From: the human T2T-CHM13v2.0 reference genome, Homo sapiens
NCBI RefSeq assembly: GCF_009914755.1
Contig: NC_060930.1
Direction: 5' to 3' (one strand)
Length of the DNA: 64,000 nt
This document shows positions 51,554 through 51,730 of the stretch, in pieces; position 1 is the first letter of the stretch, and the number at the start of each line of letters is the position of its first letter. The notes under the pieces were generated by a model. The model ran no database searches, was not told where the DNA came from, and saw nothing but the letters and a program-made list of their open reading frames with translations. Position numbers and translations under genes: made by a program.

Positions 51554-51730
51554 CTTGTCCTCATGGACTCTCAGTTTCCAAGCCCAGAGGAGATTGTTGT
51601 TCTGGGTGAGCAGCAGTTGGTGCTGTTTTGCTTTCAGCCTCCTTGACCAGTTCCATTAGAAAAGGGCTGCCGGTGCTGGCTGTAGGACTGGGAACTAGAG
51701 CTGAAGGAAGGATGCTGTGGATGTCCTCCT
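51554..51730 (-). pseudogene. Candidate vestigial or poison cassette exon of IMPG1 (177 nt, phase 1/1, S/T/P/E-rich, one in-frame TGA)
   Basis: ctaacctttctgcag| acceptor, AAG|gtaggt donor, length divisible by 3, in frame with exons 12 and 13. Confidence 0.5.

What the first reader, a model, noticed from the sequence alone, without database searches (positions are those of the whole stretch)
51554..51730. Hidden frame-symmetric 177-nt mucin-like exon behind IMPG1 exon 12, broken by a single stop codon
Seen: 170 nt into intron 12 the minus strand has a branch-like CTAAC, a short pyrimidine run and CAG (gaactaacctttctgcag|AGGAGG); 177 nt later there is a strong donor AAG|gtaggt. 177 = 59 codons and both ends are phase 1, matching exons 12 and 13. 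The spliced frame reads ...[67 protein letters not shown]..., the same S/T/P/E-rich composition as the flanking mucin-like exons. The only stop is a TGA at 51563-51561. I recognise no repeat here, and this peptide is not in the IMPG1 protein I recall. Inference: either an ancestral coding exon that lengthened the glycosylated stalk and was lost in this lineage, or an NMD-triggering poison exon that tunes IMPG1 dosage. It would also be a candidate site for deep-intronic splice variants in IMPG1 retinal disease. Caveat: the branch motif is unusually close to the AG.
Basis: partly seen in the sequence, partly recalled or inferred. Interest (0 to 1): 0.8.

Follow-up and report, generated by a model that had tools for sequence, protein, structure and literature searches.

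The report
Vestigial in-frame pseudoexon behind IMPG1 exon 12
A 177-base stretch just inside intron 12 of the human retinal gene IMPG1 looks like an in-frame exon with one stop codon; the same stretch is open in several other mammals but is left out of nearly all their gene models, so it is most likely a decaying remnant rather than a working exon.

Summary
On the minus strand, cag|AGGAGG at 51730 and AAG|gtaggt after 51554 bound 177 nt. Both ends are phase 1, and the S/T/P-rich frame has a single TGA.

The stretch is single-copy in the human genome. It has orthologues in other mammals: unspliced ORF fragments that look pig-, horse-, cetacean-, carnivore- and bat-like read the same frame at 54-70% identity. 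Ser replaces the human TGA in 13 of 13. In 5 of them one ORF runs from exon 12 through the 170-nt interval to the candidate donor.

Three results argue against present use:
- 115 of 120 named mammalian IMPG1 models skip it.
- The flanking intron is equally conserved.
- A neutral simulation keeps the frame stop-free in about 40% of runs.

A human retina long-read atlas lists no isoform containing it. The stop is not shared by other mammals, so a conserved poison exon is not supported.

Best reading (0.5): a relic of former coding sequence, dead in human. Rivals are a chance ORF in a GC-rich conserved block (0.3) and a still-used alternative exon in some mammals (0.15).

The parts
51554..51730 (-). 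Candidate 177-nt pseudoexon, phase 1 to phase 1, 59 codons, S/T/P/E-rich, with one TGA
   Evidence: sequence and spliced translation; composition; weak periodicity; orthologous open frames in other mammals.
51561..51563 (-). The single in-frame stop (TGA). Ser in 13 of 13 non-human sequences that cover this codon in frame
   Evidence: alignments (ESPSGQG, ESLSGQG, NLSRQG, LSQSGQG).
51731..51752 (-). Acceptor region: CTAAC, a short pyrimidine run, then cag. The human frame change relative to the laurasiatherian ORFs lies at 51737-51746
   Evidence: crude acceptor score 3.4; frame class changes from 0 to 2 between 51746 and 51737 in 9 sequences.
51548..51556 (-). Donor AAG|gtaggt. The other species read GQ-G-K/R-S here, which fits GTAAGT or GTAGGT
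   Evidence: (score 9.9; one of 13 strong donors in the intron).
51679..51694 (-). Two nested in-frame acceptors, giving 141-nt and 126-nt versions. The 126-nt version matches the piece used in the Callospermophilus lateralis model P0023
   Evidence: (P0023 aligns to 51692-51546).
51731..51900 (-). 170-nt interval between exon 12 and the candidate. It is open in the exon-12 frame in human. In 5 other mammals it is one continuous ORF with exon 12 and the candidate
   Evidence: P0017 is the human read-through ORF; P0006, P0011-P0014 are continuous; (no periodicity, p=0.44).
51901..51979 (-). IMPG1 exon 12 (79 nt, phase 0 to 1; c.1213-1291 by my count)
   Evidence: Hub annotation; (c.976 is reported in exon 10, which fits this numbering).
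51450..51990 (.). GC-rich block (45-52% GC) running from exon 12 to about 100 nt past the candidate donor. Flanking intron is 29-34% GC
   Evidence: (49% GC for 51554-51979 against 39% for the window).

Best explanation
The stretch is a vestigial piece of IMPG1 coding sequence. In an ancestor of placental mammals, the DNA directly after exon 12 carried an open frame in register with exon 12. That frame ended at the donor now at 51554. It would have been spliced either as a 59-codon phase 1-1 cassette exon or as the far end of a longer exon 12 using a second, downstream donor. Either way it would have lengthened the mucin-like stalk.

The short form, exon 12 joined straight to exon 13, is the form annotated across mammals today. 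The extra segment now appears to drift. It is still open in some lineages (pig-, horse-, cetacean- and some carnivore- and bat-like sequences). It is frameshifted in others (arctic fox, several bats). In human it is closed by a TGA where the other mammals have Ser, and a one-base frame change near the acceptor also breaks read-through.

In human it is therefore a dead pseudoexon that is normally skipped. If it were included it would insert 56 codons and then a premature stop.

Shown: the anatomy, the orthologous open frames, and the skipping in annotated models. Inferred: that it was ever translated, and which of the two architectures applied.
For: (1) The anatomy is as described. The donor is as strong as real donors and is one of 13 strong donors in 51.8 kb.

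(2) It is single-copy. A 481-nt query matched only itself in the human genome. The horse-like ORF P0011 matched only this locus at E<=10. There is no Pfam family and no similarity to the rest of IMPG1. It is therefore not a repeat or an internal duplicate.

(3) Orthologues exist. phmmer of the 55-residue peptide against 1.84 billion representatives gave 10 hits at E<=1e-3. Seven of them are this locus in human or other mammals. A second search added P0011-P0018. Of 16 non-human sequences that overlap the candidate:
- 9 read all of it in one frame without a stop;
- 4 cover part of it in frame;
- 3 are frameshifted inside it.

(4) The codon matching the human TGA is Ser in 13 of 13.

(5) In 5 of 11 sequences that reach exon 12, one ORF runs from exon 12 through the interval to 2-3 codons past the donor (P0006, P0011-P0014). 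A run of 116 or more open codons starts at only 0.6% of positions in this window.

(6) S+T+P content is 38%, in the top 0.5-1% of windows and similar to the neighbouring mucin-like exons. Exon-like GC content is confined to the stretch from exon 12 to just past the donor. Periodicity is weak.

(7) Five of 120 named IMPG1 models include all or part of it, using the same donor in four: narwhal P0019, fallow deer P0021, sheep P0022 and golden-mantled ground squirrel P0023. The fifth is arctic fox P0032.
Against: (1) The candidate is no better conserved than the DNA around it. Translated identity to human is 54-70% in the candidate, against 52-73% in the interval, exon 12 and the intron upstream of exon 12. 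Similarity continues past the donor.

(2) In a neutral substitution simulation tuned to that identity (d=0.20-0.25), the candidate frame stays stop-free in 39-44% of runs, and the interval plus candidate in 13-17%. Open frames in other mammals therefore do not prove selection.

(3) The ORF databases keep only open frames, which biases the tally toward intact copies.

(4) By my reading of the sequences, close pairs change as fast in the candidate as in the interval. Bat P0004 against P0006 differs at 8 of 59 residues in the candidate and 2 of 26 in the interval.

(5) The interval shows no codon periodicity (p=0.44), and the candidate's is borderline.

(6) 115 of 120 models skip it. The five that include it are submitter 'hypothetical protein' models, an unreviewed model, or a 'LOW QUALITY PROTEIN' model. 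I could see no RNA evidence for them.

(7) No paralogous exon was found elsewhere in the human genome, IMPG2 included (E<=10).

(8) No non-placental IMPG1 was examined.
Confidence: 0.5

Rival explanations
1. Chance ORF. The DNA next to exon 12 is a GC- and C-rich, moderately conserved intronic block, perhaps carrying splicing-regulatory sequence. C-richness both lowers the stop-codon frequency and yields Ser, Thr, Pro and Ala codons. An open, 'mucin-like' frame beside a strong cryptic donor then arose without ever being coding. Other mammals inherited it simply because the block has diverged little.
For: - The candidate is conserved no more than the interval, the intron upstream of exon 12, or the DNA past the donor.
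- The neutral simulation keeps the frame open in about 40% of runs.
- A run of 56 open codons occurs at 6% of positions.
- Periodicity is borderline in the candidate and absent in the interval.
- The ORFs of P0006 and P0011 also run 25-40 codons upstream through the exon-12 acceptor, which shows that chance open frames are common here.
- 115 of 120 models skip it.
- No paralogue was found.
Against: - The coincidence is multiple: about 116 codons open in register with exon 12 in five lineages (a run that long starts at 0.6% of positions).
- The frame ends within three codons of a strong donor, in the phase that exon 13 needs.
- The composition is in the top 0.5-1% of windows and matches the neighbouring exons.
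- The GC block stops near the donor.
Confidence: 0.3
2. Live alternative exon. The segment is still spliced into a minor or tissue- or stage-specific IMPG1 isoform in mammals where it is open. In human its inclusion gives a premature stop, so it acts as an unproductive, NMD-targeted exon and as a ready-made pseudoexon for deep-intronic disease variants.
For: - Splice sites are on a par with real exons.
- The frame is intact in 9 of 16 overlapping non-human sequences.
- Five gene models include it, among them an NCBI model for Callospermophilus lateralis that uses the nested 126-nt version.
- A short-read meta-analysis of human retina reports 14 novel IMPG1 transcripts out of 18, together 23% of expression, but the files I could read do not give their exon structures (PMC10111803, supplements 2-6).
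Against: - The stop is not shared by any other species seen, so a conserved NMD switch is unlikely.
- There is no excess conservation of the exon or its flanks.
- The human neural retina PacBio atlas lists only ENST00000369950 (7,463 reads), ENST00000611179 (3,600 reads) and one novel isoform (418 reads). The novel isoform's new exon is at hg38 chr6:76,025,014-76,025,193, about 22 kb 5' of the candidate by my constant-offset estimate (PMC11450717, supplement 1). That file is marked as cut when stored.
- Named models from species with several listed isoforms (pig, dog, dingo) skip it.
- The one spliced transcript-like ORF found (P0018, bat-like) goes from exon 12 to exon 13 sequence without it.
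Confidence: 0.15

Closest known systems
Vestigial (lost) exons: former coding exons that survive as recognisable intronic sequence after being dropped from the mature mRNA
   Same: - In-frame and phase-compatible, with splice-site-like ends.
- Composition resembles the neighbouring exons.
- Orthologous open frames persist in some lineages.
- Different disabling lesions occur in different lineages: a stop in human, frameshifts in fox and some bats.
   Different: No species was shown here to express it. Conservation is not above that of the flanking intron, so past coding use is inferred rather than demonstrated.
Disease pseudoexons activated by deep-intronic variants, such as the IMPG2 case in PMC13003989 (seen only as title and abstract in the listings)
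   Same: An intronic AG...GT segment with near-consensus sites in a retinal-disease gene. Its inclusion would bring in a premature stop.
   Different: No activating variant and no inclusion have been reported for this IMPG1 segment. Literature searches found nothing. Unlike many pseudoexons it is not repeat-derived.
Poison exons (conserved NMD-coupled cassette exons, as in SR-protein genes; recalled knowledge)
   Same: In human, inclusion would introduce a premature stop upstream of the last exon junction.
   Different: The stop is absent from all 13 other sequences that cover it. There is no exceptional nucleotide conservation, and no evidence of inclusion.
Alternative 5' splice-site pairs that keep the frame (long and short forms of one exon)
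   Same: In five laurasiatherian sequences, exon 12, the interval and the candidate form one ORF ending at the downstream donor. Both donors would therefore feed exon 13 in frame.
   Different: In human the two donors are 347 nt apart, which is not a multiple of three, and the long form contains stops. The interval shows no codon periodicity and is frameshifted in 6 of 11 sequences that reach exon 12.

Membership tests
Coding cassette exon of IMPG1 | AG acceptor and GT donor of usable strength | tested here: met
   The acceptor scores 3.4 and the donor 9.9 on a crude matrix built from recalled frequencies. Real exons in the window score -5.4 to 6.4 and 5.0 to 11.6. MaxEntScan and SpliceAI were not available.
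Coding cassette exon of IMPG1 | Length and phase keep the downstream frame | tested here: met
   177 nt, phase 1 to 1; exon 13 reads DTSWSPP... after it.
Coding cassette exon of IMPG1 | Open reading frame in the species concerned | tested here: not met
   TGA at 51563-51561 in human. The frame is open in 9 of 16 overlapping non-human sequences.
Coding cassette exon of IMPG1 | Present in transcripts or curated protein models | tested here: not met
   115 of 120 named mammalian IMPG1 models lack it; none of the 3 IMPG1 isoforms in the human retina long-read atlas has it. No RNA-seq junction data could be examined.
Coding cassette exon of IMPG1 | Evolutionary signature of coding constraint | tested here: inconclusive
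   Only protein-level fragments of other species were available. Identity equals that of the flanks. The neutral simulation explains the open frames. Periodicity is borderline. Tests at the DNA level could not be run.
Poison exon (NMD-coupled regulatory exon) | Premature stop on inclusion | tested here: met
   (human only).
Poison exon (NMD-coupled regulatory exon) | Stop and exon conserved across species | tested here: not met
   Ser in 13 of 13 other sequences at the stop position. No excess conservation.
Poison exon (NMD-coupled regulatory exon) | Inclusion detectable and raised when NMD is blocked | not testable with these tools
   No read-level RNA data were available. The published atlas lists no such isoform.
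Repeat-derived exonisation (Alu, MIR, L2 and similar) | Sequence belongs to a dispersed repeat family | tested here: not met
   the 481-nt query matched only itself in the 3.1-Gb genome; the protein query matched only this locus. The tool warns that very common words are skipped.

The most novel reading that the evidence does not exclude
IMPG1 has a lineage-variable extra stalk segment. It is a 42-59-codon mucin-like alternative exon, or a long form of exon 12, that is still translated in the retina of some mammals (pig, horse, whales, ground squirrels). It was knocked out by a stop codon on the human or primate line. The surviving near-consensus splice sites leave human IMPG1 with a latent premature-stop pseudoexon at about c.1291+171 to +347, which deep-intronic variants could activate in unsolved vitelliform dystrophy or retinitis pigmentosa.
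Probability: 0.15. Interest if true: 0.5.

Novelty: new member of a known kind. Interest (0 to 1): 0.3.

Why it matters
IMPG1 variants cause vitelliform macular dystrophy and retinitis pigmentosa, and many retinal-dystrophy cases remain unsolved after exome sequencing. A pseudoexon 170 nt into intron 12, with a donor as strong as real ones and an in-frame stop, is a sensible place to look for deep-intronic activating variants. By my count it lies at c.1291+171 to c.1291+347.

For evolution, it would be an example of a mucin-like stalk being shortened by exon loss, with different lineages disabling the remnant in different ways. As it stands it does not change the known IMPG1 protein, and no function is shown.

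Tried and rejected
- **Repeat or duplicate origin: rejected.** The stretch is single-copy. It has no similarity to the 797-residue chimpanzee IMPG1 model (best E=23) and no Pfam family.
- **Paralogous exon in IMPG2: not found.** Searching the horse-like ORF against the human genome in six frames at E<=10 gave only the locus itself.
- **Full-length proteins holding the human peptide: none.** The 'longer' search with the human peptide alone found nothing. The profile search was needed.
- **DNA of other mammals: not obtainable.** Viral contigs and genome contigs gave no relative. No mammalian genome other than the window's own is held. Codon-level tests (dN/dS, PhyloCSF) were therefore impossible.
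- **Recursive-splice-site exon: rejected by inspection.** The acceptor is followed by AGGAGG, not GT.
- **'Exon-13 skipping' in bat and seal models: corrected.** Human exon 13 is 533 nt and contains DHFLED internally. Those models use an internal acceptor of exon 13.
- **Literature: nothing on this exon.** The searches were 'IMPG1' with 'deep intronic' (32 papers, 20 listed), 'pseudoexon' (6), 'poison exon' (0) and 'intron 12' (0); 'SPACR' with 'alternative splicing' and 'exon' (3); 'novel exons', 'retina' and 'long-read' (46, 20 listed); and 'IPM 150' with 'isoform' and 'exon' (0). I read only the passages naming IMPG1 in PMC12517372, PMC7917623 and bioRxiv 10.1101/2024.08.08.607267.

Full report
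**Observation**

The minus strand reads ...ccattgaactaacctttctgcag|AGGAGGACATCC... with the first exon base at 51730. That is 170 nt after the exon-12 donor (CCTG|gtaagt, last exon base 51901). It then reads ...CCATGAGGACAAG|gtaggtcct with the last exon base at 51554.

The segment is 177 nt long. Exon 12 starts in phase 0 and is 79 nt, so one base is carried over. Splicing the segment between exons 12 and 13 gives ...[71 protein letters not shown]... with a single TGA at 51563-51561.

**How unusual is it in the human sequence alone?**

I scored splice sites with a crude matrix whose frequencies I recalled.
- The acceptor (3.4) and donor (9.9) fall within the range of the five real exons of the window.
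- In the 51,839-nt intron there are 186 acceptors scoring at least 3, but only 13 donors scoring at least 9.
- Of 18 acceptor-donor pairs 50-300 nt apart, 8 have lengths divisible by three. Three of those are this donor with nested acceptors at 51730, 51694 and 51679.

Other measures:
- A run of at least 56 open codons starts at 6% of positions on this strand. A run of at least 116 starts at 0.6%.
- S+T+P content is 38%. That is the top 0.5% of 12,768 windows and the top 1% of 796 open windows.
- Exon 12 to the donor is 49% GC in a 39% GC window. The GC-rich block (45-52%) runs from about 51990 to about 51450, between flanks of 29-34%.
- Codon periodicity is strong in exon 12 (p=5e-4) and in the mucin-like part of exon 13 (p=1e-4). 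It is borderline in the candidate (p=0.048; 4.4% of 5,000 random intron windows reach it). It is absent in the 170-nt interval (p=0.44) and past the donor (p=0.63).

**What it is not**

A 481-nt query matched only itself in the 3.1-Gb genome. The horse-like ORF matched only this locus at E<=10, so no IMPG2 counterpart was seen. The peptide has no Pfam family and no similarity to the rest of IMPG1. It is not a dispersed repeat or an internal duplication.

**Relatives in other mammals**

phmmer of the 55 residues before the stop against 1.84 billion representative proteins gave 10 hits at E<=1e-3.
- Six are unspliced ORF fragments of other mammals, 56-64% identical over essentially the whole peptide.
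- One is the human piece itself.
- Three are low-complexity matches.

A word-based search with one fragment (P0006) added P0011-P0018.

By their exon-12 parts, compared with named models, the fragments look like:
- pig (P0014);
- horse (P0011);
- a cetacean (P0013);
- carnivores (P0012, P0001; probably also P0003 and P0009, judged only by their similarity to P0012 in the interval and candidate);
- bats (P0004-P0006, P0015, P0016).

These labels are my inference. The records are unnamed.

Mapping all fragments onto the human DNA, together with the alignments, gives the following.

| Measure | Result |
|---|---|
| Non-human sequences overlapping the candidate | 16 |
| Read all of it in one frame, no stop | 9 (P0001, P0003, P0004, P0006, P0011-P0014, narwhal model P0019) |
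| Cover part of it, in frame | 4 (P0009, P0021, P0022, P0023) |
| Frameshifted inside it | 3 (P0005, P0015, arctic fox model P0032) |
| Ser at the codon matching the human TGA | 13 of 13 |
| Residues across the donor | G-Q-G-K/R-S, which fits GTAAGT or GTAGGT |

In 5 of the 11 sequences that reach exon 12 (P0006, P0011-P0014), a single ORF runs from exon 12 through the interval and the candidate. It stops 2-3 codons after the donor.

In human the interval is also open in the exon-12 frame (P0017), but it enters the candidate one base out of register.

**Is it used?**

A profile of the fragments retrieved 120 named mammalian IMPG1 models. A local HMM of the candidate part found it in 5 of the 120:
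- narwhal 'hypothetical protein' P0019 (whole candidate plus part of the interval);
- fallow deer P0021 and sheep 'hypothetical protein' P0022 (3' half);
- Callospermophilus lateralis 'LOW QUALITY PROTEIN' P0023 (the nested 126-nt version);
- arctic fox P0032 (a frameshifted reading).

The other 115 join exon 12 to exon 13 sequence. They include primates, rodents, rabbit, carnivores, ungulates, whales, bats, afrotherians and armadillo. Two further models (Myotis brandtii P0020, wolverine P0024) simply run on into the interval and stop.

The one spliced, transcript-like ORF among the unnamed fragments (P0018, bat-like) goes from exon 12 to an internal point of exon 13 without the candidate.

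For human, supplement 1 of the PacBio proteogenomic atlas of neural retina (PMC11450717) lists three IMPG1 isoforms. The file is marked as cut when stored, but the three IMPG1 rows are adjacent.
- ENST00000369950: 7,463 full-length reads.
- ENST00000611179: 3,600 reads.
- One novel isoform: 418 reads. Its new exon is at hg38 chr6:76,025,014-76,025,193, about 22 kb 5' of the candidate by my constant-offset estimate and outside this window.

A short-read meta-analysis (PMC10111803) counts 14 novel IMPG1 transcripts among 18. The supplements I could read give no exon coordinates. Seven literature searches found nothing on this exon.

**Selection or drift?**

Only protein-level fragments of other species were available, so codon-level tests were impossible.
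- Translated identity to human is 54-70% in the candidate. It is 52-73% in the interval, exon 12 and the intron upstream of exon 12. Similarity continues beyond the donor. The exon is therefore not an island of conservation.
- A neutral substitution simulation starting from the human sequence reproduces that identity at d=0.20-0.25. It leaves the candidate stop-free in 39-44% of runs and the interval plus candidate in 13-17%.
- ORF databases retain only open frames, which biases the sample.

With these two points, the many open copies are about what drift from an open ancestor would give.

What drift does not explain is the ancestor itself:
- a frame of about 116 codons in register with exon 12;
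- a mucin-like composition;
- an end at a strong donor in the phase that exon 13 needs;
- exon-like GC content that stops near that donor.

**Verdict**

Most likely (0.5) this is a relic of sequence that was once coding. It would have been either a phase 1-1 cassette exon or the distal part of a longer exon 12 with a second donor.

The weak periodicity of the candidate, the lack of it in the interval, and frameshifts in the interval in 6 of 11 sequences lean toward the cassette form. The five continuous ORFs keep the long-exon form alive.

In human it is dead, closed by the TGA and the frame change, and it is normally skipped.

A chance ORF in a GC-rich conserved intronic block remains a serious rival (0.3). 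A still-used alternative exon in some mammals, with human inclusion acting as an unproductive isoform, is possible (0.15). A conserved poison exon is not supported, because the stop is confined to human among the mammals compared.

The practical value is as a flagged pseudoexon for deep-intronic variant interpretation in IMPG1. It lies at about c.1291+171 to +347. The numbering is mine and is consistent with c.976 lying in exon 10.

Noticed in passing
L004 (G000:C6:77127300-77128100), exon 13, window coordinates below 62: Several named models join exon 12 to an internal point of exon 13 (...SLP|DHFLE...). This removes in frame the mucin-like first part of exon 13, about 110 codons. The models are Phyllostomus discolor X2 (P0031), Artibeus jamaicensis X1 (P0044), Sturnira hondurensis X2 (P0067) and Mirounga angustirostris (P0042). 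The unnamed spliced ORF P0018 does the same. Human exon 13 is 533 nt and holds DHFLED internally. I did not look at whether human uses that internal acceptor.
   Followed up: partly
window 51880-51900 and the exon 12/13 junction in other species: The exon 12-13 junction varies among named models. Hippopotamus X1 (P0038) reads GELLPT from the first codons of the interval, as if using a donor about 12 nt downstream. Warthog models insert EGIGP (P0078, P0081, P0083). One dingo model has EAFST (P0027). Apodemus speciosus inserts VIGHKMASGMSSK (P0137).
   Followed up: no
outside the window, about window 73,800-74,000 by a constant-offset estimate: The human neural retina PacBio atlas reports a novel IMPG1 isoform (418 full-length reads, not flagged as NMD). 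It has a gained exon at hg38 chr6:76,025,014-76,025,193 (PMC11450717, supplements 1 and 3).
   Followed up: no
window 56463-56483 (-): The annotated 21-nt micro-exon has a purine-rich, very poor acceptor by my crude matrix (gatgaaatgaag|ACCA, score -5.4) and a weak donor (TGG|gtaatt, 5.0). It presumably depends on special splicing factors.
   Followed up: no
window 43799-43858 (-): This is the only other frame-symmetric, stop-free acceptor-donor pair in intron 12 at my thresholds. It is 60 nt long and its peptide is not mucin-like (GSVFCFHPFLLAHIHTKEKT). It is probably chance.
   Followed up: no
window 51416-51553 (-): Translated similarity between human and the bat-like ORFs (P0004, P0005, P0015) continues for at least 80-140 nt past the candidate donor. 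The conserved block is therefore wider than the putative exon.
   Followed up: partly
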